Assembly: GCF_964204645.1 (NCBI RefSeq)
Contig: NC_134031.1
Location: forward strand, 18,483,910-18,547,909
Length of the DNA stretch: 64,000 nt
Direction: 5' to 3'
Source: Tubulanus polymorphus
Taxonomy: Eukaryota > Animalia > Nemertea
A model generated the notes under the pieces. It saw only the letters and a program-made list of their open reading frames with translations, was not told the DNA's origin and ran no database searches. A program made the translations under genes and the position numbers. Below, in pieces: positions 34,249 through 62,851 of the stretch. Position 1 is the stretch's first letter. Each line of letters starts with the position of its first letter.

Positions 34249-34437
34249 GTTCCACAGTTGTGTGGGTTTAATTAGATTCTGAACCCAGTTCCACAGTTGT
34301 GTGGGTTTAATTTGATTCTGGACCCAGTTTGACAGTTGTGTGGGTTTAATCTGAGTCTGGACCCAGTTCCACAGTTGTGTGGGTTTAATTTGACTCTAAA
34401 CCTAGTTCCAAAGTTATGTGGGTTCAATTTGACTCTG
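34249..34437 (+). repeat. 39-bp minisatellite, about 5 units
   Basis: Near-perfect 39-bp period (13-aa repeat in ORF 34272-34520). Confidence 0.95.
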
Positions 34438-35179
34438 ACTTGATTGCGATAGACAATTTCATTTGCAGAAAATAGATCCTGCTCTGTGGTTTTAATATTT
34501 AACGCTTGATTCAGTTGCATTAGTTGTAAATGAGAGGATGCACAGTCACACGGTTTGTTGTATTCAGTGACGTGGTTCTATGTTTAGCGTTTCGTACGGA
34601 AAACTATTTTGTGAAGTGATTTCCTAAAGCATTGCTCTTTCCAACACTTCAGTTCTACGACATTTACTTCTGCGACATTCGACACTCTCTCCGCTTCCCT
34701 TGACATATTTCAAGAGTACTTTTTTAGAATTTGCTTTAGGAAACAATTTGTCGACTGATTGGATCAGCGGCATTACTATACAGCGAGCTACAGGTTGACG
34801 GTATGACGTAAAACGAGTCCCAAGTAAACAGAAAAACATCGCGCATGCAACGTACCCGTCAATCTGCTAAAAAAGTAGTTCGCGTCACTGCGCAAGAATT
34901 CAATTAAGTCGATGAAAAATGTTTTGTTGAATGTTCGTGCGGAAGCAAACATGTAGTAAGTCCTGTCAACAAATTAAATTGAAGTTCTTTACATTGTTGT
35001 CATATAGATATATAGCTGGTTCAACTTCATCGGAGAATTTAACAGATACGTACAGTAACGCCCTCTTCATCTGACCTTGACTTGTTTCATTTGAAAAATT
35101 AGAATCGACAAGAGTGATTGAATTATGTTTACCTTATATGGTAATCGTATTTTGCAGAATGACAACATTCACTACCGGC

Positions 35180-45925: not shown

Positions 45926-46195
45926 AGATCAATTCTACAGTTCTACGGTTTAATTTGACTCAGAACCCAGATCCACAGTTGTGTAGGTTTTAATTGACTC
46001 TGAACCCAGTTCCACAGTCGTGTGAGTTTAATTTGACTCTGAACCCAGTTCCCCAGTTTTGTGGGTTTTATTTTGACTCTGAACCCAGTTCCGCGGGTTT
46101 AATTTGACTCCGAATCCAGTTCCATGGTTTTGTTGGGTGATTAAGATGTCATATCCTCATCTCTAACTCGAGTCAAAAATTAAATCCACAACCGC
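45926..46195 (+). repeat. 39-bp minisatellite, about 5 units plus one inverted unit
   Basis: Direct units at 45926-46125; inverted gagtcaaaaattaaatccacaacc at ~46170-46193. Confidence 0.9.
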
Positions 46196-47540: not shown

Positions 47541-47804
47541 TTAAAGCAACAACAAGAAAAATGTTATCATCGAAATAATGAGACCCCAAATCGTTTTCGT
47601 CGATGTGTTATTGGCTCCGTTAAGTCCAGTTCCCTGGTTGCAACCGGAACCCTTGCAACAACTTAGATCGAGGATTTTTGTCCACAAAGTTTCAAAAAGC
47701 GCCGCCTTAACGACCATTAGTTGGTCGTTCGTACAACTAATGACGTCATCGGTACATCCTCGCTTGATTGACAATCCATTGGCTTCGTCAATGTAAGTGA
47801 TTCG
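47541..47804 (-). CDS. Ly6/uPAR protein, coding exon 3 (CCxxxxCN motif and GPI signal)
   Basis: Acceptor cttttcttccaaacag|. Encodes RITYIDEANGLSIKRGC...SCCKGSGCN...TIWGLIISMITFFLLLL*. The joined protein is 144 aa with 10 Cys, the canonical LU-domain ending and a hydrophobic C-terminal tail. ATTAAA lies about 40 nt past the stop. Confidence 0.88.
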   Translation of the reverse strand, partial: RITYIDEANGLSIKRGCTDDVISCTNDQLMVVKAALFETLWTKILDLSCCKGSGCNQGTGLNGANNTSTKTIWGLIISMITFFLLLL

Positions 47805-48119
47805 CTGTTTGGAAGAAAAGAAACGTGGAAGCTAAGCATCTTTAAAAAATGTGAAATGGGGCATTACGAAGTTGATCGACATGTCATGTATTTTGATATA
47901 GAGCAAGGATGTAGTATGGCTATAATAACATTTGCTGGAATAATTTAAGAGGATTCTGGACAGCCTTGTTTGATTTAGCGGAAAGATTTAAAGGAAACAT
48001 TAAAGCAATAAAAAGGTTTTCGGAAATCTTTTCTATTTGGAAAATTTCAATCGTGGATTTCATTAATTAAATAGTGATATAGTAAACAGGCGAAAACGGC
48101 GGGAATCTACGTTCTTCAT

Positions 48120-48190
48120 AATATGGCTCGAAGGACCGGGTGTTTGACTCGCAATTTAGATGCGGTGAGTTCGAACCCCGTCGTCCGCGT
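48120..48190 (+). mobile_element. tRNA-derived SINE head, antisense in Ly6 intron 2
   Basis: A-box TGGCTCGAAGG and B-box GAGTTCGAACC at tRNA-like spacing; no intact cloverleaf seen. Confidence 0.5.
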
Positions 48191-48209
48191 TATTTTATCA
48201 TCTACTCAC

Positions 48210-48325
48210 GTAACACTGTTCCGGGCATTCGACTATTTCTAAACTCTCGCACATCCCGTCGACGCCGACCTGTTTGATGCCGATACAGTCCCCTCTCCAA
48301 CACGACCCATTCGAGCTTTCACTTC
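48210..48325 (-). CDS. Ly6/uPAR protein, coding exon 2
   Basis: Acceptor tttctttcccgtgtttcaag| (an in-frame alternative tttag| would start the exon at 48373). Encodes (G)SESSNGSCWRGDCIGIKQVGVDGMCESLEIVECPEQCY with 5 Cys. Phase-0 donor TAC|gtgagt. Confidence 0.85.
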
Positions 48326-48495
48326 CTTGAAACACGGGAAAGAAACTTATATAAACGCATACAAAACGAAGTGCTAAATTCTGAACTCAGTTCAGCGGTA
48401 ATTAGTTCCGATCCGATTCAATTCGATCTTCAGAAATTGTCAGTTTCAAAAATACCAATCTATTAAGAAAATGAAACAGGACTCGATAACACTAC

Positions 48496-48550
48496 CTTTC
48501 ACCATGATCAAAACGCCGACGATTGCGACCAATATTTCAATAGGGGCCAT
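48496..48550 (-). CDS. Ly6/uPAR (three-finger) GPI-anchored protein, coding exon 1 (signal peptide)
   Basis: ATG at 48550 encodes MAPIEILVAIVGVLIMVK+G, then a phase-1 donor AAG|gtagtg. A pyrimidine tract plus aag about 20 nt upstream of the ATG suggests a further 5' UTR exon. Confidence 0.8.
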
Positions 48551-48739: not shown

Positions 48740-51470
48740 AATTGCTCTCATAGGATTTTGCGCGATGGAAATCGATCAAATCGTGTTTGATTAAGGTTCT
48801 TGTAACGACGCCAAGAGCTCGTTAATGATAGCTCGCGATATCATTCGAAATGCATTTACTATTCACACACCAGACAATATTAGGTTCAAAACTCTCTATA
48901 AAATGAATGGAGCTTCAGACGCGAAACATTTCCATCGGAAATTCATCAAAATGTTTTTACTTTTCTTATTTCATTATTATGTCATATTTAGTAATATCGG
49001 TTTCAGATATGAAATATTCTAGTATGTAAGTGAGTATAGGAAACGAACAAAATATGTTTCTGTAAAACTGTCCTTGAAACAAAGCTATGTAAAAAAAATC
49101 TATTCAGAAAATATGAAAATAACTAGCCACTGAATCGTTATTTTTCATCATCATTATCATTGTCTATTAGCATTTCTTATTTAACATTACTTATCATTAT
49201 TACTTATCAATATTTATCATCATCATAATCATCATAAATCTATGTTTCTCCCATGTGACCTGGACGTCCACACAGGCTTTATGACTCTGTTCAAACCCAT
49301 CATCAATTTCCAATTTTTACCGTGTTTAATTTTAACCTGAGGTCATTTGATGGCAAAATAGATAATGTTATGATTAACAAGGAAAAAGTGTGTATATTTC
49401 CAAGATGACGGTAAAATTGACGTTTGTCTTAGTGAGAGTTTGCTCAAACGAATGAAATAACAATCTGTCACATTTTTAATGAAATATATCTTGTTAATGT
49501 ATTAAAACTTTTGAGAATTACCTAAATCAAAAAATTGTCACTGAAATGTTCCAGAAATAGAATCCCGAAACTGTTCGAAAATAAACAAGATATTTCTGTG
49601 AGAGATTCTTGTTTTGTTCGTTTGAGCCAACTCTGAAAAATAGTATCAACTTACCAAGTAAACGCTTATATTGTTCCAATCTCGTGTAGTACTGTGTGTT
49701 ACGTGTATCGGGTGGTCCTCGGAGCCCATATGTTACCCGAACTCGCCTCAGTACCCAATTTCAGTGATCAATGCACAGCTCTCAAATCTGAGCCGGGTTA
49801 AATCGATTTGACGTGATGAAATAGTGATATTCGAAATATGTTATGACCGAAAAGGCATGATTTATTGGTAACCGTTAATGAAACGAGTTGACAAAACAAT
49901 CAGTCAAGCCCAGGATTCAACGTTTCGACTGTATCCCAATTGGGAAACTCTTAAGTTGGTTCTGGATTTTATGTTGTATATATTTCTATATTTCATAATT
50001 TTGTTGTTACTTTCATATTCCTGATGATGACTATTAGGTCAGTGGAAAGGTTAAATGGAATATTTACAGCAACATTTCGGATTCTTTTTTCTTTACTTAT
50101 CGTGAGGTTTTAAAACTAATTAATCTAACTCATATAACGGGGAACCGAGTCCTGTCATCAATTGCTATCAATAATTAAAAGGTTCTATGAATAATTTTTC
50201 GGGTCGTTTCATTTTGAAATTATCATCGCTGCCGTCTTCAAAACCGTAAGAGTTACTTATAACGATAGATGCCGTAAAAACGGGGTTAATTTTCTATTCC
50301 GATCGAGCGAAACAGAAACCAGCTGAAATCAGTTAAAGCATCATCATCAAATGATAATAGATTTTTAGACTATTTGCCGTTATTGTAATTGACAATCTCT
50401 GCTGGAAGGAAATTAAGGTCGACATCGAAATAAAAACCGGGAAATTTGCAGCTGCGTCGCGCGATCAACTGTAAATTAACCGATGCAATTTAAAAACACC
50501 GAAAACCAATGTAGAAAAATGTATGTTTTTCGGGAAGTAATGTTTCTGGTGGTTGCGCAGTTCCGCTCTTGTTTGGTTTGAAGCGAGCGACGGTAAATCC
50601 GGTGAACTGATTAGAATACCCGAACGCCTCTAGACGCGAGCTAGGCGATGTATCGTTTACATCCTGTGGGTAAATATTCGAATTCTAGTGTGGAATTACG
50701 GCAAGAAAACTAATCAGTTTTAATCAAAATTATTCAATCTTCCCTCCCGGCAAAATTCATTCCGAATAAGCGAGATCCAGCACTCCACGTTTCTGTGGGC
50801 TAAGGAGAGTCACTCAGAGTCAACTTCTTGAAAATTAACCTTGGTAATCGTGGGTTGTGAATGGGCATTAATGAAATAATGAAATTACATCGTGAATCGA
50901 AATTATGATTAGTTGCTTTTGGCTACTTTTACTGCCAAGGAAAAAAACCAAGGCCCGGTTGCACAGTCGTGACTTAAGTGTTAAAGCGGTCTTAGCCATG
51001 ACTGTGCAACTGGCCCCAGTTTAACAGTTTTCCGTTGAAATCTAAGGTCATATTTTGAAAGCGAATTAACTTCTTCGCTTGAGTCGATCTTGACAGGAAT
51101 CTATGAAATTGGGTCCCTGATGATATGATTCTCGTTCGTAAAACATTATTGCACACACAGAGAGGACGCGCGTGAATATGATACGATAATAGATCGTCGA
51201 TAGAACGATAATCATAGGTGATTTTATTATATCGTTATTGACATTTCGGTGCAAATTGGAGAAATTGTGTAGTCGTATGTGCTGTTTATTTGTGTTCGGT
51301 GATTTGTATCGAATTGCACGCGACCGCAATCTGTGAAACCATAACTCCACGAATCCGCCCAGTAGAGGTTTCTTACATCCTCGTCCTGTTTCGATTTGAC
51401 TACGCCATATTGGTCAGCAAACATAGTAATAGATATATGATCATAACAGACCCTCGAAGTTTGTAAATCC
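48740..51470 (-). pseudogene. Decayed TLR/LRR ectodomain remnant
   Basis: Signal-like MIIYLLLCLLTNMA*, head YGFTDCGR (ORF 51227-51424), LRRs GVLDLAY (~50775) and LSFDDDALTDF/VSLDRNR (~50290-50365), and LRRCT-start-like ISIAQNP (~48750-48775). Confidence 0.45.
50952..51016. mobile_element. 65-bp hairpin MITE
   Basis: GGCCCGGTTGCACAGTCGTGACTTAAG / CTTAGCCATGACTGTGCAACTGGCCC, flanks caa/cag. Confidence 0.75.
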
Positions 51471-51824: not shown

Positions 51825-52026
51825 TTAGAATCCGTTTGACCAGTATCCAGTGCGGAACTGCTTGCATTTTCCGATGTGGCCCTTCACTCCTGTATAGTAT
51901 TTTGACCAGTACTGTATCGAACAGTAGTAACCCTGACAACAGTCGGACGATCGCAGACAAGATTTGGCGCATCGGTCGTAATTCGGGGATTCGAACCAAC
52001 CGTTACCCCAGAAATCACGGCGTAGC
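51825..52026 (-). CDS. Knottin-like prepropeptide, coding exon 3 (furin-type site and mature Cys-rich peptide)
   Basis: Acceptor ttttattttcag|. Encodes (R)LRR then DFWGNGWFESPNYDRCAKSCLRSSDCCQGYYCSIQYWSKYYTGVKGHIGKCKQFRTGYWSNGF*. Cys pattern C-x3-C-x5-CC-x4-C-x18-C. Confidence 0.75.
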
Positions 52027-52152
52027 CTGAAAATAAAATTCAAGGGCCAGTTTTATAGACATATAGGAGCCAAGGAGTCGAGTGGGTGGTAATTCTTTAG
52101 GTCTTATTATCACAAAAATTGATACACTATTCAAACATATCTATATGACCAG

Positions 52153-52200
52153 GACCCAATTGCACTGATAAGATTTGACTCAGAACTGTGGAACCGGGTC
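52153..52200. mobile_element. 48-bp mini-MITE with CAG target-site duplication
   Basis: CAG|GACCCAATTGCAC...GTGGAACCGGGTC|CAG. The TIR matches the 5' part of the 39-bp minisatellite unit. A similar element lies at 51505-51576. Confidence 0.65.
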
Positions 52201-52465
52201 CAGTATATGATGTCACCACGCCTGATTGGTTACTATCCCTAATGGTCACCGCACTGGCCAGTCAAAACTTATTCTTTAGGACTCATTCCAGTGCAAAGGT
52301 TGAGACGCTTGACTGACAAGCTGGAGGTACCAGGTTCTAGGCAAGCCACGTTTCCAGCCCAGCCAGCTTTATGTTTAGTGGCCAGGACTTTTGTTGGAGT
52401 TTTGATGGCACTTTGTCTGAAAGCTTTTGCCGTCTTATTTTGAAAATGGAATTTGTGTGTCTTAC

Positions 52466-52514
52466 CTATTCTGGATGAATTCCCTTGATCCGTCTTCGCC
52501 GGGGTCGTACGAAC
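52466..52514 (-). CDS. Knottin-like prepropeptide, coding exon 2 (acidic propeptide)
   Basis: 49-nt exon, tattatgttttatag| ... AG|gtaaga, phase 1 to 2. Encodes (G)SYDPGEDGSREFIQN(R). The phases match both flanking exons. Confidence 0.65.
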
Positions 52515-52669
52515 CTATAAAACATAATACAATACACAAACTTATAATCGAAGCAAATGAAGTGACACCAATTCGCTGTCAAAAACTTCGGAAGCGAAAT
52601 GAGCCATGGTCATAACACACATGAAATACGAATGAACTCCAAAGCCGTTTTCTAAAGCCGATCATCATC

Positions 52670-52850
52670 TTAGTTCTAAATCTAACAACTTAAGACCAGT
52701 CTAAACTTATTTTGGTTCTATGGCCAATCAAATAACTTAAGGCCAGTCAGCTATTTAAGCTTACAACTTAACAGTCTGAGCTTAATTCTGGATAAGTTAT
52801 CAATCTAACAACTTAAGAACAGGTTTGAATACTTAAGACCACTTTTAGAC
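52670..52850 (+). repeat. ~50-bp tandem repeat, MITE-internal family
   Basis: aacaacttaagaccag recurs about 5 times. Confidence 0.8.
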
Positions 52851-55800
52851 GTAAATCCTGAATGCGCTAGTTGGTGTAATGATAAAAGTCTGAAAAAAAT
52901 TATAATTTACAGGAATGACGTACAGAGAGTGTGTCACGTGACCCCGTAGTTAATGGAGGCAAATATTCATTTGGTTAAGTGGAAATCGAGGAATAATCTT
53001 GCTTCCGGTTAATCGTTTAACAATCCGTGGTCGGCAAACAGAGCAAATACATTAAGCGTCACTTTATTCGACAAACAATCCCTCAAACACTCACACACAT
53101 TTGTACATCTGAGTCGTATACCTTTCTTTCACAAGATCGCATACAATTTCCCTTCGCTAAAAGTGCATACAGTGAACTTATCGTTGTTTTTCGGGGGTTC
53201 ATAAAAAGAAGCTATGGGTTCTTTCCAGCTGAACCTTAAGGTTCTCCAGCACGCCAAAGTGATAAAAAGGGGTTCGTTGTTATATGTGATTGAAGCTTTC
53301 AAAGAACCAAGAAATTGCGTTCCATTCATTTACAGGTTGAGTTCATTCAATTTTACTGCAAGTTCGTCATGAAGTAACTCGATACGTGGGATTGAATTAG
53401 AACACCGTAAAAACGTCACCAAGTTGAGTGTGATCTTGAAAACAAGAAATTCTATTTCGCTTCGGGCTTCGCCGTTTTATTTTTCACATCGAACTGGATC
53501 AAAAACGCGACAACAACGTGGTCGTAATTTTCAGAAATCTCGACACGATTAACACCGTGACTGAGAACGACTTTGAACCGCAATTACGTTCGAGGCTTTA
53601 AAGGCTACAAGTTCTAATCTTGAAGCTCGGGATTTCTTTATAGTTTAAAGGATAAATAAAACAAGATGGCGGCAGGGAACATTGATATTCTCGGAGGTGG
53701 TTTGTTTTACATCGCGCCTTTAGATCTAAACCCATTGTTTTTAGAGGACTTCTACATCAACATCTACCCGAGAAAAAACTACATTAAACTATCGGACTAT
53801 TTACACGTAGAAAACGATAAAAAAGTTATAAAAATGGATAAAATGATCTTCAACCATGTAATATATTTACTTCCAAAATTTCGATGTATTAAATAAGGCA
53901 GCCAAAAAACCCCAATCAGTCGCTTACCCGTTCAGACTGGTTGGAAGATTGTTTGAATGAACCGGAACCGAAATTCCCAATTATGTACTTCGATTAAAAC
54001 AAAAAAATATGTAAACCTGACCGACGATCAGACAACTAAATAGCTGTACTTCGATTTCCGATTTCAAAATCAAGTTTCAAGTTTCGCTCCCGGCAGGTGT
54101 GGTGGGTTTGTAAGGGACACTCAATCAAAAAATTCAAACGAAATTTACCAACCAAATAAATAACAGGGTCAATCCCCATTTTAAGATCAAAGAATCTGAT
54201 GGGAAAAAAGCCCATAGTTCGGTTCCTGGGTCCGTAATTTAGTCTAAACAACAACTAGGCTCGAAATGACCATAAGAATGAAATGACTAACGTAAAATGT
54301 TGCTTTCTGTAGCCAGTTACATGCATCGGGTCGAATTGAATGTGGTTAGAGCGTTTATTTCGACCAGGTTATGATGGATTGTTATGTAAATTAATTTGAA
54401 ACTGAACGCTTTTCCTTTCAAATAGTAGAATGAAACGCTATTTAAATCGAATGTGACAACCATCGAAGCAAACAAACTCTATTTTTCATCATTACGGGTT
54501 TAGGTAAAACTCCATCAAAATCTAATCATGAAATAAACATTCTGGATCCAGGTCCACAGTTGCAGGTTGATATACAATGTAACACCACGTATAGTTCAAA
54601 GATTCAAAAATGATTTTAAGTTTTCTACGAATTCGGGAGAGATCCTAATTCTTTTCATATCTAAATCTTAAGCTTTCTGTTACGGGAAACAAAGATCCAC
54701 AGAAAAAATTAGTCCGAAGTCGTTACGTCTTCGAGAAACTATTTCTGGAGTCGACGCCAGTAACGCAAGATAATTGACAAGAATCTTGATCCGTTCTTCG
54801 AAGCTTAAGGAAAATTCTGATACCCCGCAATTGCCACCGCATCTTTCAAGTTCTACTTCTGCAAATTTAAAGGGTTTTAACGTCACTGCAATTTTCTTCG
54901 AGTATTATAATAAAATCTAGGCTCGTAATTTAGGAAAAACTGTGACATAAGGATCTGGTACTTCAGTGTACGAATCCGATAGCGTTTGCCGTCAGAACGC
55001 GAGGTTTAGAGTTCCTAGCTCAGTCGACTGACGGCTGAACTAAGGGCTTTCGGAGCTAGCGCGCCCCGGGTCAAGATTTCCATTAGAAGACAAAGGGAGT
55101 CGTTTGATAGAATTAACGATAAAAGAAACGACACGGCATTCTAACAAGTTGCGACATTCAGTCTGATCCAACACACTTCCAACAGAATTAGAACTCCACG
55201 TTCGACTGTGGCAATCGAGGATTCCACATGTGCCAAGCGAGGTTCCACTAGGGGTCAGTAGTGTGCATTCGGACACTTCTCGGTTTCGATTAGAATCGTT
55301 CCATAAGTTTTCGAATTCTGCGACTGGTCATTTGAACTATATATGCTAGAACTCTCGAGATCGCTCTGAGTTTGTCAAGTGACACAAATCGCCTAATGTT
55401 TTATGTCGGAGGCTTTGAATCTAAATAAAAATTACTAGAAAATGACTATTTGACCGAGCAATCAAACCCTGGTAAGCGAGGATGGGTTCCGTGTTCCTAC
55501 CAGAGTTTTTTTTTTATGTCATCACGCATCAAAGTATATTCATATGTTACAAGTTAAGCATGAACCATCACTACCCAGGGGGCGACGCTATCGGATTAGA
55601 ATCCCGCCAAGGACGGTTCAGTTGACTAAGGTCATTTTTGTTTTGTCAAAATTCATATTCGTTCATGAATCAATAATGAAACTCCGTTTACATTTCCCCG
55701 TGTTTATCGCATGTATAGTAGTAGAGTTAGAATTGGTTTGTTATTCTGCAATCGTGCGGTGGATAATTAAATTCATCAGCTATTCTTCAGAAACTACCAC

Positions 55801-57099
55801 TGATATTCGCGTGCGTCTTGCTCACAAACCCAGTCTCGGTTTAACACGTCGTGTTCAGTTGAGTTGGCGTCGAAGTCACGAAACTTAAGGAACAATAATT
55901 CCGTCATCTTTGAGATGACCTGCATTACGGATTTAATTATTAGGGGTCTCGGCCACAAATTGTACAGCCATTGATTTGCAGGAGTCATTCGTTTTATCAA
56001 AATTTATAGAATATTGTATCAAATATTGTATAATATGCAAATATTTATACCATCATTAATTCGATGAAATAAGTTAAGCAATTCATTCATAATTTCATTT
56101 CGTTATATTCGCAATGAAATAATTGGCATTATCCTATTCGGGACAAAATTCTAGGTTTGTTATGTAAACACCGGCCCTCCGTCGTGCAAACGTCCATGAC
56201 GGACCGTAGCATATTTTAGTGATATCCTTTGAGACACTTTGAAATACGATGACCCTATCCCACATTATAGATGGGGTCCCTGTGCCCTGTCCAAACACTA
56301 TAACAAATCCCAGAATCACCCCAACATGACTTAGACCTGCGACGTCAAACATAAAGCCATTCCCGCTAACTACTTAACCGTCGTCGAAGGGAGAGGGCGC
56401 CACTTGCTGGTCATAACTGGCGAACTACGAGTTCACAGCGAAGTGAGCGTCGCAAACTCTCGCGCCGAAAACAAAGTTTTTGATTACCCTAGTACTTTCA
56501 GTTGCAGTGCCTCTATTCTACGTTATCATTATCTGATGACGAGAGTTCCATACTGGCAGCTCTCAGCCAATATGAAGTACAATAGTATGAGAGGCGTAGA
56601 TGTTGGCACAGAATCTGGTATTGATCGAAATGAGCAACGTTTGGGGCCGTGTTCAATACGGGAACAAAAGACTCGGGTAATTAACTAGTAAAATGTCTCT
56701 TTTGTAGTAGAAACGTCTGATGGTTTTATATTTAACCGACCAACCATCCTTTATCGATCTGTTTACGGTACAGATGGTAATATAAACATGAAGAAAAACC
56801 AGCGATCGGCGATAGGTGCCCCACCCATTCTAGCTGTTTGAATAAAATATCTCGGTCAGAAGTTGCCTGATACGATAGCTTTTTTACAAAATAATGTGAT
56901 ATTGAATAGCTAATATTCGAAAAAATGTAGTAGACTCTGTTATACTCGGTAGCTTATAAATTGGAAAGAGTAGATCGAATACCGAATCAAGATTCAGGAC
57001 CCAGTTCCATTGGATGAGTAAACGTTTTTTTTTTTTCAATAGTTCAATTCTTCGAATTTCCTGGTGTTGAATTCCGTGTTGCATAATATTTCAACTAAC

Positions 57100-57184
57100 C
57101 TTTCAATGCTGGCAGAGCAACAGCACAGCAAATGTAACAAAGCACAAGGCCGGAGAAGACAACAATTGTGGATGATGTCGACAT
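57100..57184 (-). CDS. Secreted knottin-like prepropeptide, coding exon 1 (signal peptide)
   Basis: Strong acceptor tttttttcattttcag| (exon starts at 57197), then aatcATG. Encodes MSTSSTIVVFSGLVLCYICCAVALPALK+G with a phase-1 donor AAG|gttagt. Its link to exon 2 across 4.6 kb is inferred from phase compatibility. Confidence 0.6.
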
Positions 57185-57409
57185 GATTATTTCTGCTCTG
57201 AAAATGAAAAAAAAGATATGCATAACAGGGGAATTTATTTTCGGTACAAATATAATGCATTAGCCGGTTCCTTGAGATGATTCAGTCGTCATCGACTGAG
57301 AGATGGAACAATTGGACGAAAAAATATAATCGAAAACTTAATGTCCTTTGTATACCCGTTTTGACTTCATGTTGGTCGCATTAGAGCACGATGTCGTATA
57401 CGTTTTAAC

Positions 57410-57711
57410 AGCGGAACTGAGATCTAGAGTCTAATTGAATCAACACGGCCGCGGAACTGGGTCCACTGTCAAATGAAACCCACGCAACTGTGGAACAGGA
57501 TCCACGGTCAAATGAAACCCACGCAACTGTGCAACAGGATCCTGAGTCAAATGAAACCCACGCAACTGTGCAACAGGATCCAGAGTCAAATGAAAGCCAC
57601 GCAACTGTGGAACTGGGTCCAGAGTAGAAACTGGCCCTAAACAAATGTGGATGTGAATCCGAGTCGAAACTGTGATCACCAAACAACTGCGGAACGGGGT
57701 CAAGAGTCAAA
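57410..57711 (-). repeat. 39-bp minisatellite, about 7 units
   Basis: actgtggaactgggtccagagtcaaatgaaacccacgca with period 39. Confidence 0.95.
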
Positions 57712-59630: not shown

Positions 59631-59800
59631 GACTCAGTTCTACAGTTGCGCGAGTTTAATCTCTGACTCGGGATTCAGTTCCATGGTTGTGTGGTTTCAA
59701 TTTGACTCTGGACTTAGATCCACAGTTGTGTGGGTTCAATCTTATTCTGAACCCAGTTCCACAGTTGCGGGTCTTACTCTAGATTCAGTTTTCCACAGTT
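59631..59800 (+). repeat. 39-bp minisatellite, about 4-5 units
   Basis: Matches the consensus. Confidence 0.9.
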
Positions 59801-61903: not shown

Positions 61904-62851
61904 TCACGACGGTTTCTTCTCGAAGATCAAATTCTGTAATTCGATTCTGATTTCTTTTCCCGTCATCAGATACAAGTAGAGATTAAACGAGTAATTTATC
62001 ATTAAGATGTCGGTGAAAATGGCGAAAATGTTTTTCAATTCTGGATTTGTCCAGACAATAGGACTGAGGATAAATGTTGGGAATGTTGTAACCATGAAGA
62101 ATATGCACAGTAACAGAACCAACACGGTTACCTGGTTCGAGTATTTCGATGCTTGAGTTGTTTCCGATTTGCCTTTTTTTCTTAATAAAGTGATAGAAGT
62201 TATTGTGGACATGACAGTTAACGAAGTGAACGGGCCTATAGAGACAAGAATAGACGATAGCAAGGGTTTGGTAAATTCGGGAACATTTCTAATGATACAA
62301 CCGTTGTCACTTATATCAATGGTTACAAATAAAAAACTAAAGCTCAACGCTTCAAAGCAAACTACGGAGAAACATAGTTTAGACGCTGTATTCGGGCTCC
62401 AGAAACGAGGACCTCTAAACGGAAAACAAACGACACACATTCGCTCGGTAGCTACGAGGACCAGCGTCCACGGACTGCTCGAAAGACCAACTGTTACAAA
62501 ATACTCAAGAAATATACATTGAATTCGAGTCGGCGGTTTGATCAGTAACCTTCCATAGAAAACGTAAGATATAACGTTTAAATACTTCATCGAATAAATG
62601 AACAGAACTAAAGTGTCGCAGACGGCTAGTTGAACGAACATACGACTGAAAGAACGTCGCCATAGTTTACGTTGCCGCATAACTATCACGATGAGCAGAT
62701 TACCGATGAATCCGAGAATAAAACAAAGACTAGCGAATACGAGGTAATACCAAAGGTAGATTCCGTTTATCGTAGTTGCAGCAATTACGATGGCTGTGTA
62801 GATATTAGTGGGATATGTGCGATTCTGAAGATTAAGTAAAGCCACAGCCAT
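61904..62851 (-). CDS. Intronless class A (rhodopsin-like) GPCR, FMRFamide-receptor-like/peptide or chemosensory-type orphan, 315 aa
   Basis: Uninterrupted ATG-to-stop ORF with seven hydrophobic segments. TM1 GFIGN, TM2 LAVCD, Cys before TM3 (IQC) with an ECL2 Cys (NGC), TM3 ATERMCVVCFP (ERx variant of DRY), TM5 GPF, TM6 FMVTTFP, TM7 NYSFNLYLY. N-glycosylation site NRT in a short N-terminus. Ligand unknown. Confidence 0.92.
   Translation of the reverse strand: MAVALLNLQNRTYPTNIYTAIVIAATTINGIYLWYYLVFASLCFILGFIGNLLIVIVMRQRKLWRRSFSRMFVQLAVCDTLVLFIYSMKYLNVISYVFYGRLLIKPPTRIQCIFLEYFVTVGLSSSPWTLVLVATERMCVVCFPFRGPRFWSPNTASKLCFSVVCFEALSFSFLFVTIDISDNGCIIRNVPEFTKPLLSSILVSIGPFTSLTVMSTITSITLLRKKGKSETTQASKYSNQVTVLVLLLCIFFMVTTFPTFILSPIVWTNPELKNIFAIFTDILMINYSFNLYLYLMTGKEIRIELQNLIFEKKPS

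What the first reader, a model, noticed from the sequence alone, without database searches (positions are those of the whole stretch)
51825..57197. Hidden 3-exon gene for a secreted, furin-processed, aromatic-rich knottin-like peptide (candidate toxin or antimicrobial)
Seen: three minus-strand exons with canonical splice sites and matching phases (1, then 2) join into 111 aa: MSTSSTIVVFSGLVLCYICCAVA-LPALKGSYDPGEDGSREFIQNRLRR-DFWGNGWFESPNYDRCAKSCLRSSDCCQGYYCSIQYWSKYYTGVKGHIGKCKQFRTGYWSNGF. Known: signal + acidic propeptide + RxRR + C-C-CC-C-C is the precursor layout of inhibitor-cystine-knot peptides such as conotoxin framework VI/VII, spider toxins and alpha-nemertides. Unusual here are the short first loop (3 aa), the very long last loop (18 aa) and 15 aromatic residues out of 63 (4 W, 7 Y, 4 F). 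I do not recognise the family. A defence or venom function is inference.
Basis: partly seen in the sequence, partly recalled or inferred. Interest (0 to 1): 0.85.

Follow-up and report, generated by a model that had tools for sequence, protein, structure and literature searches.

The report
Ribbon-worm CP3-r neuropeptide-like knottin gene
This ribbon-worm gene is already annotated and belongs to a named but unstudied family of small secreted cysteine-rich peptides (CP3-r) found in all ribbon-worm classes, so it likely makes a nerve or hormone signal rather than a new toxin.

Summary
The three coding exons, splice phases (1, 2), 111-aa frame, RxRR site and six-Cys, 15-aromatic peptide are as described. 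The gene is not hidden. The identical protein is RefSeq XP_074653911.1 of the ribbon worm Tubulanus polymorphus. Its one true database homolog, from Lineus longissimus (E 7e-10), is printed in Thiel et al. 2021 as a member of the nemertean 'CCWamide-Prohormone 3-related' (CP3-r) proneuropeptide group. That list has 10 entries from 9 species in all three classes, one labelled Tubulanus. The gene shares the family's Cys spacing, FWG start, GYY core and GYW end. It also has the CCWamide/agatoxin-like gene plan, with a phase-2 intron inside the cleavage-site Arg. Deep conservation at about one copy per species fits an endogenous signalling peptide better than a toxin. Function, receptor and expression site are untested, and the knot fold is plausible but unproven (low-confidence models). 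Open point: the palaeonemertean copies lack the amidation tail, and this one has a 5-residue hairpin insert, so recruitment to mucus or venom is not excluded. New member of a known, orphan family.

The parts
57100..57197 (-). First coding exon (acceptor AG at 57199-57198, 13 nt of 5' UTR, ATG at 57184); encodes the predicted signal peptide (about residues 1-23, 57184-57116) and the start of the spacer
   Evidence: the signal cleavage site is inferred from hydrophobicity and the -3/-1 small residues, no SignalP run
52515..57099 (-). Intron 1, 4585 nt, GT..AG, phase 1; holds high-copy repeats
52466..52514 (-). Second coding exon, 49 nt: acidic spacer, ending in the first two bases of the Arg codon that opens the R-L-R-R site
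52027..52465 (-). Intron 2, 439 nt, GT..AG, phase 2, inside the cleavage-site Arg codon (the CCWamide/agatoxin-like-peptide intron position)
   Evidence: compared with section 9 of PMC8557429
52017..52026 (-). Rest of the furin-type R-x-R-R processing site
   Evidence: R-x-R-R is present in all 9 CP3-r entries whose N-terminal part aligns
51828..52016 (-). Predicted mature 63-aa CP3-r peptide: FWG start, Cys loops 3/5/0/4/18, CCxGYYC core, GYW near the end, no G-K-R amidation signal
51825..51827 (-). Stop codon TAA (followed by TAG)
51285..51290 (-). Nearest AATAAA, 534 nt after the stop; candidate polyadenylation signal (unverified)

Best explanation
This is the Tubulanus polymorphus gene of the nemertean CP3-r (CCWamide-prohormone-3-related) peptide family, and it likely encodes an endogenous neuropeptide or hormone with a predicted cystine-knot core. 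Shown: three coding exons and a hydrophobic leader, an acidic spacer and an R-x-R-R site before a six-Cys peptide, with relatives in all three nemertean classes. Inferred mechanism: the leader sends the precursor into the secretory pathway. A furin-type convertase releases the 63-mer. Three disulfides (predicted I-IV, II-V, III-VI) hold a long beta-hairpin. The conserved aromatic N-terminal FWG and C-terminal GYW segments likely form the surface that acts on the worm's own, unknown receptor or channel. The family likely arose from an eight-Cys CCWamide/agatoxin-like gene that lost the inner disulfide stapling the hairpin, which would explain the long last loop.
For: (1) The only real homolog among 1.84 billion representatives is Lineus longissimus XP_064642941.1: E 7.3e-10, with all six Cys and both termini matched. 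The other 3 of 5 hits are long repetitive proteins matched on short stretches. (2) That sequence is printed under 'CCWamide-Prohormone 3-related' in the supplement of PMC8557429: 10 entries, 9 of the paper's 13 nemertean species, all three classes. (3) A transcript labelled Tubulanus polymorphus in that list shares 15 consecutive residues across the cleavage site and 33 of 58 aligned mature residues (hand count). (4) The gene plan matches that described for CCWamide/ALP genes: three exons, signal in the first, mature peptide in the last, phase-2 intron inside a basic codon of the cleavage site. (5) Copy number is about one per species: the profile search found only P0003 and P0004 among 7 candidates, and exon 3 is covered by one contig without a second look-alike at 80% likeness. 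The two Lineus species differ at 2 of 52 mature residues. By contrast, alpha-nemertide toxins are confined to Lineidae and come in pairs. (6) The G-K-R amidation tail, a neuropeptide hallmark, is in all 7 complete pilidiophoran and hoplonemertean entries (6 species).
Against: No CP3-r peptide has expression, peptidomic or functional data. It is not among the 18 precursors confirmed by mass spectrometry in PMC8557429, and its neuropeptide label rests on similarity clustering. This copy and both palaeonemertean entries lack G-K-R. CP3-r has 6, not the 8, Cys that define CCWamides. The two Tubulanus sequences are only about 57% identical, fast for a neuropeptide. Language-model neighbours are spider and cone-snail toxins (0.78-0.87, leads only), and Pfam gives a sub-threshold Conotoxin hit for the Lineus protein (E 0.0019). 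Agatoxin-like neuropeptides have been recruited to venoms. The knot is not demonstrated: pLDDT is 63.5 and 56.3.
Confidence: 0.65

Rival explanations
1. A neuropeptide-derived mucus or proboscis toxin. The CP3-r gene, at least in palaeonemerteans, has been recruited to gland cells and acts on ion channels of prey or predators, as agatoxins derive from agatoxin-like neuropeptides.
For: Knottin-type Cys pattern and toxin-like precursor. Weak structural matches are to spider and scorpion knottins, Z 2.3-2.5. The amidation tail is absent, there is a 5-residue Tyr-rich insert, and identity between the two Tubulanus sequences is about 57%. A C-C-CC-C-C peptide is 27-fold enriched in the integument of the palaeonemertean Cephalothrix (PMC12846013 passage; its sequence was not readable). 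Precedents are reviewed in PMC13311285.
Against: About one copy per species in all three classes, with conserved linear termini. Known nemertean knottin toxins are lineage-restricted and duplicated. There is no paralog in the 64-kb window. The divergence may reflect two species, as Pacific 'T. polymorphus' is T. ruber.
Confidence: 0.2
2. An antimicrobial or chitin-binding mucus peptide that uses its cationic, aromatic surface on microbial walls or membranes, like horseshoe-crab tachystatins.
For: Charge about +3.8 with 15 aromatics. The Lineus homolog weakly matches tachystatin B (E 0.64 in PDB; E 1.5 in Pfam).
Against: The Lineus ortholog is nearly neutral (+0.7). The tachystatin matches are not significant. 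The amidation tail and intron position point to the neuropeptide lineage.
Confidence: 0.1
3. A Dickkopf-like Wnt antagonist: a mini-protein copying the first subdomain of the Dkk colipase domain and binding LRP5/6.
For: The best Pfam hit is PF21481 (E 2e-5, 25 bits, cut-off 27). The best PDB sequence hits are DKK1/2, with 12 of 20 ungapped identities (E 0.004-0.009). The top Foldseek row is DKK1 (E 1.1, rmsd 1.4 over 36 columns).
Against: The match weakens with the two-sequence profile (E 0.03) and is absent for the Lineus protein. Colipase folds and knottins share the disulfide-directed hairpin (bioRxiv 10.1101/485722 passage), which explains the likeness. The second Dkk subdomain is missing. 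Lineus has a true two-domain Dkk (PMC6425005 passage).
Confidence: 0.03
4. A mispredicted or silent gene model.
For: The RefSeq record is a predicted model (XP_ prefix; meaning recalled), and no spliced read from this locus was seen here.
Against: Intact frame, canonical splice sites, transcript-derived orthologs in 8 species and a matching intron phase; 0 of 150 simulated windows gave the pattern.
Confidence: 0.02

Closest known systems
CP3-r, CCWamide-Prohormone 3-related group of nemerteans (Thiel et al. 2021, PMC8557429)
   Same: Signal + spacer + R-x-R-R; FWG start; C-x3-C-x5-CC-x-GYY-C; an aromatic five residues after Cys5; last Cys followed by x5-G-[YF]-W.
   Different: Last loop 18 aa against 12-14; no G-K-R tail (like the two other palaeonemertean entries, unlike the 7 complete neonemertean ones); more cationic than the Lineus member.
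CCWamide / arthropod agatoxin-like peptides (ALP)
   Same: Short precursor, three coding exons, phase-2 intron in a basic codon of the cleavage site, aromatic residue in the hairpin and near the C-terminus.
   Different: Six rather than eight Cys (the inner pair is missing); no C-terminal amide in this copy.
Alpha-nemertides (Lineus mucus knottin Nav toxins)
   Same: C-C-CC-C-C pattern; signal-pro-mature layout.
   Different: 31 aa with loops 6/5/0/3/5 (from the disulfide positions); restricted to Lineidae and paired; no sequence hit.
Dickkopf 1/2/4 colipase domain, subdomain 1
   Same: 12 of 20 identities over the disulfide-directed hairpin.
   Different: Only one hairpin, an extra Cys pair, a 10-residue longer loop; the match is lost in the Lineus ortholog.

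Membership tests
CP3-r (nemertean CCWamide-prohormone 3-related) | Significant sequence similarity to listed members over the mature peptide | tested here: met
   E 7.3e-10 against the Lineus longissimus member, 47% identity over 66 columns; that sequence is in the published list
CP3-r (nemertean CCWamide-prohormone 3-related) | Signal peptide, spacer and R-x-R-R before an FWG-starting peptide | tested here: met
CP3-r (nemertean CCWamide-prohormone 3-related) | Six Cys spaced 3/5/0/4/long with CCxGYYC, and C-x5-G-[YF]-W | tested here: met
   loops 3/5/0/4/18 here, 3/5/0/4/13 in Lineus; by-eye comparison
CP3-r (nemertean CCWamide-prohormone 3-related) | C-terminal W-amide (W-G-K-R), as in the paper's label 'Wamide group' | tested here: not met
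   No G[KR][KR] after the last Cys. The authors' own Cephalothrix and Tubulanus entries lack it too, so it does not define membership
CP3-r (nemertean CCWamide-prohormone 3-related) | Host is a nemertean | tested here: met
   identical RefSeq protein named Tubulanus polymorphus
CCWamide / agatoxin-like peptide proper | Eight conserved Cys in the mature peptide | tested here: not met
   six Cys against eight; T. polymorphus has separate eight-Cys CCWamides
CCWamide / agatoxin-like peptide proper | Three exons; signal in first, mature peptide in last; phase-2 intron in a basic codon of the cleavage site | tested here: met
CCWamide / agatoxin-like peptide proper | Expression in neurons or neuroendocrine cells | not testable with these tools
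   no RNA holder listed
Inhibitor cystine knot (knottin) | C-C-CC-C-C spacing compatible with the knot | tested here: met
   loops 3/5/0/4 lie within the classic consensus (recalled, from no call); the last loop of 18 exceeds it
Inhibitor cystine knot (knottin) | Disulfides I-IV, II-V, III-VI with a C-terminal beta-hairpin | tested here: inconclusive
   both models show the hairpin at pLDDT 63.5 and 56.3; 4 of the 5 VIA rows are toxin peptides at Z 2.3-2.5, rmsd 2.2-4.0 over 34-48 residues; disulfides are not reported
Alpha-nemertide toxins | About 31 aa with loops 6/5/0/3/5 | tested here: not met
Alpha-nemertide toxins | Present in mucus and active on Nav channels | not testable with these tools
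   needs peptidomics and electrophysiology
Dickkopf 1/2/4 | Ten-Cys colipase domain with two subdomains | tested here: not met
   only a 22-residue match below Pfam's cut-off; six Cys

The most novel reading that the evidence does not exclude
In palaeonemerteans the CP3-r neuropeptide has lost its amide, and in Tubulanus it has gained a Tyr-rich hairpin insert, because it was recruited from the nervous system into mucus or proboscis glands. It would be the first peptide toxin characterised from a palaeonemertean, and an independent repeat of the CCWamide-to-agatoxin recruitment seen in spiders.
Probability: 0.15. Interest if true: 0.65.

Novelty: new member of a known kind. Interest (0 to 1): 0.3.

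Why it matters
CP3-r was named in one paper and, has not been followed up in the searched library. The CCWamide/agatoxin-like superfamily has no known receptor or function. This locus adds the exon structure of a CP3-r gene, and its phase-2 intron in the cleavage-site Arg supports descent from CCWamide/ALP by loss of one disulfide. The amidated (neonemertean) and non-amidated (palaeonemertean) natural forms make a ready pair for finding the receptor or testing recruitment to venom. It is also a caution: knottin-like precursors in venomous animals can be conserved signalling peptides.

Tried and rejected
No whole genome was held, so a genome-wide paralog search was not possible. No RNA holder was listed. 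The three runs laid are contigs covering introns, with no joint at either splice site; they say nothing on expression. One contig of a second sample showed 0 differences over 140 nt of exon 3 and flank, against 3 in 151 nt that are mostly intron 2, too few to weigh. Word-index searches with exon 3 and the full protein found only the protein itself. Proteins outside the length windows were not searched by that tool, though one search had no length limit. Hits P0005-P0007 were dropped as repetitive chance matches. Foldseek gave no match at E<=0.001. Splicing of exon 3 into the downstream Ly6-like gene was rejected, since that gene has its own signal exon. No paralog was found in the window. Motif searches in venom-paper supplements found nothing, but these blanks carry little weight: one file was cut, the part held of another appears to have no peptide sequences, and one search had no positive control. 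Two supplements that may bear on mucus presence could not be read. The paper search by accession numbers was swamped by unrelated matches. The scan's earlier findings held nothing. No complex prediction was sent: the neighbouring GPCR is only a neighbour.
Full report
Observation. The coding exons on the minus strand are 57184-57100, 52514-52466 and 52026-51825. The introns are 4585 and 439 nt, both GT..AG, with phases 1 and 2, and the frame is 111 aa plus stop. The exons were translated separately, and each equals its part of database protein P0003. After R-L-R-R comes a 63-aa peptide with Cys loops 3/5/0/4/18, 4 W, 7 Y, 4 F, a mass of 7435 Da reduced and a charge of about +3.8. In 150 Markov-simulated windows the Cys pattern arose in 9 and the pattern behind a dibasic site in 0. 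A splice acceptor 13 nt before the ATG implies a non-coding first exon, which was not located.

It is not hidden. The identical protein is XP_074653911.1, 'uncharacterized protein LOC141908032', Tubulanus polymorphus, a palaeonemertean ribbon worm, in a cluster of one.

Relatives. Word-index searches returned only the protein itself. The full phmmer scan of 1.84 billion representatives gave 5 hits at E<=0.001: itself, one real homolog (P0004, E 7.3e-10) and three long repetitive proteins that I dropped. P0004 is Lineus longissimus XP_064642941.1. It shares R-x-R-R, the DFWG start, all six Cys, CCxGYYC and GYW, with 47% identity over 66 columns, and it ends in W-G-K-R, an amidation and cleavage signal. 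A profile of the two found no further protein among 7 candidates.

The family is in print. Thiel et al. [quoted passage not shown] Their list has 10 entries from 9 of the 13 nemertean species studied, across Palaeonemertea, Pilidiophora and Hoplonemertea, and its Lineus longissimus entry reads the same as P0004. By hand count: the first loop is 3 aa in 9 of 10 entries, the last loop is 12-14 aa in all 10, CCxGYYC is in all 10, and C-x5-G-[YF]-W is in all 9 complete entries. G-K-R follows in all 7 complete neonemertean entries and in neither palaeonemertean entry. The entry labelled Tubulanus polymorphus shares 15 consecutive residues with our protein across the cleavage site and 33 of 58 aligned mature residues, with a last loop 5 residues shorter. 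Our exact sequence is not in that file (0 hits for its core motif). The difference may be between species: Pacific 'T. polymorphus' is now T. ruber (PMC11167275, one passage). That the published transcriptome came from Pacific animals is recalled, not checked. No second copy was seen by profile search or as a look-alike contig over exon 3 at 80% likeness, but an unannotated, divergent paralog cannot be excluded without the genome.

Gene structure points to CCWamide/agatoxin-like ancestry. Section 9 of the paper reports that these genes have three exons, the signal in the first, the mature peptide in the last, and an intron between the second and third base of a basic codon in the cleavage site. 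Intron 2 here splits the first Arg of R-L-R-R in phase 2. True CCWamides have eight Cys, and T. polymorphus has its own. In those, the span between Cys5 and Cys8 is about 10-12 residues and holds an aromatic residue. That matches the 12-14-residue last loop of CP3-r with its conserved Trp. I infer that CP3-r lost the inner disulfide; this was judged by eye, not by a tree.

Fold. AlphaFold2 gave pLDDT 63.5 from the single sequence and 56.3 from the two-sequence alignment. Both models have a long C-terminal hairpin and disordered termini. VIA found 3 and 2 chains at Z>=2 among 48,161; four of the five are spider or scorpion toxin peptides at Z 2.3-2.5. Foldseek had nothing at E<=0.001. A knot is plausible, not shown. 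The best sequence matches of our copy are to Dickkopf. They weaken in the profile and vanish for Lineus. Colipase folds are built from the same disulfide-directed hairpin as knottins (bioRxiv 10.1101/485722, passages), and Lineus has a true Dkk (PMC6425005, passages). I read this as shared scaffold.

Function. Shown: precursor anatomy, family membership, gene plan. Inferred: secretion, convertase cleavage, knot, action on an endogenous receptor. For signalling: presence in all three classes at about one copy per species, conserved linear termini, the amidation tail in most members, and 50 of 52 identical mature residues between two Lineus species. Alpha-nemertide toxins, by contrast, are confined to Lineidae and come in pairs (PMC8406415, passages) and have other spacing (PMC5864730, passages). 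Against: no CP3-r peptide is among the precursors confirmed by mass spectrometry. The receptor and function of even CCWamides are unknown (PMC13311285, passages). This copy lacks the amide, is cationic and has diverged. Atlas neighbours are toxins, at lead-level scores only. Agatoxin-like neuropeptides have been recruited into venom before. A Cephalothrix mucus peptide has the same Cys pattern (PMC12846013, passages), but its sequence could not be read; the Kulikovia supplement was also unreadable (PMC11768458, search listing only). Passages of PMC10674772, PMC9415933 and PMC9132205 mention no such peptide, and their supplement searches are weak blanks. A search for the family name found only the Thiel paper and one unrelated paper.

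Verdict. A real, already annotated gene; a new member of a named, unstudied nemertean peptide family; most likely a signalling peptide (0.65), possibly a recruited toxin (0.2) or antimicrobial (0.1). Interest 0.3.

Noticed in passing
window 47541-48550, minus strand: A compact three-exon gene (48550-48496, 48325-48210, 47804-47541) for a Ly6/three-finger-like protein: own signal exon, CC-x4-CN motif, hydrophobic GPI-type tail. The family label is recalled from the motif; Pfam gave no hit for the separate exons.
   Followed up: partly
window 61904-62851, minus strand: Intronless rhodopsin-family GPCR (Pfam 7tm_1 E 8e-12; Srsx/Srw-like), 4.7 kb upstream of the peptide gene on the same strand. 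The exact sequence is not in the protein collection. No evidence that it is the peptide's receptor.
   Followed up: partly
window 34249-34438, 45949-46092, 57453-57625, 59631-59767: A dispersed 39-bp tandem repeat family in both orientations, at very high depth in the contig sets; likely a minisatellite-bearing mobile element.
   Followed up: no
PMC8557429 supplement part 9-10: A lineid CCWamide paralog with a 3-aa loop, a CCxGY core and an I-W motif looks intermediate between CCWamide and CP3-r; it could root the loss of the inner disulfide. Four Tubulanus 'CCAP' entries there look like THAP-domain proteins rather than neuropeptides (by eye, recalled motif).
   Followed up: no
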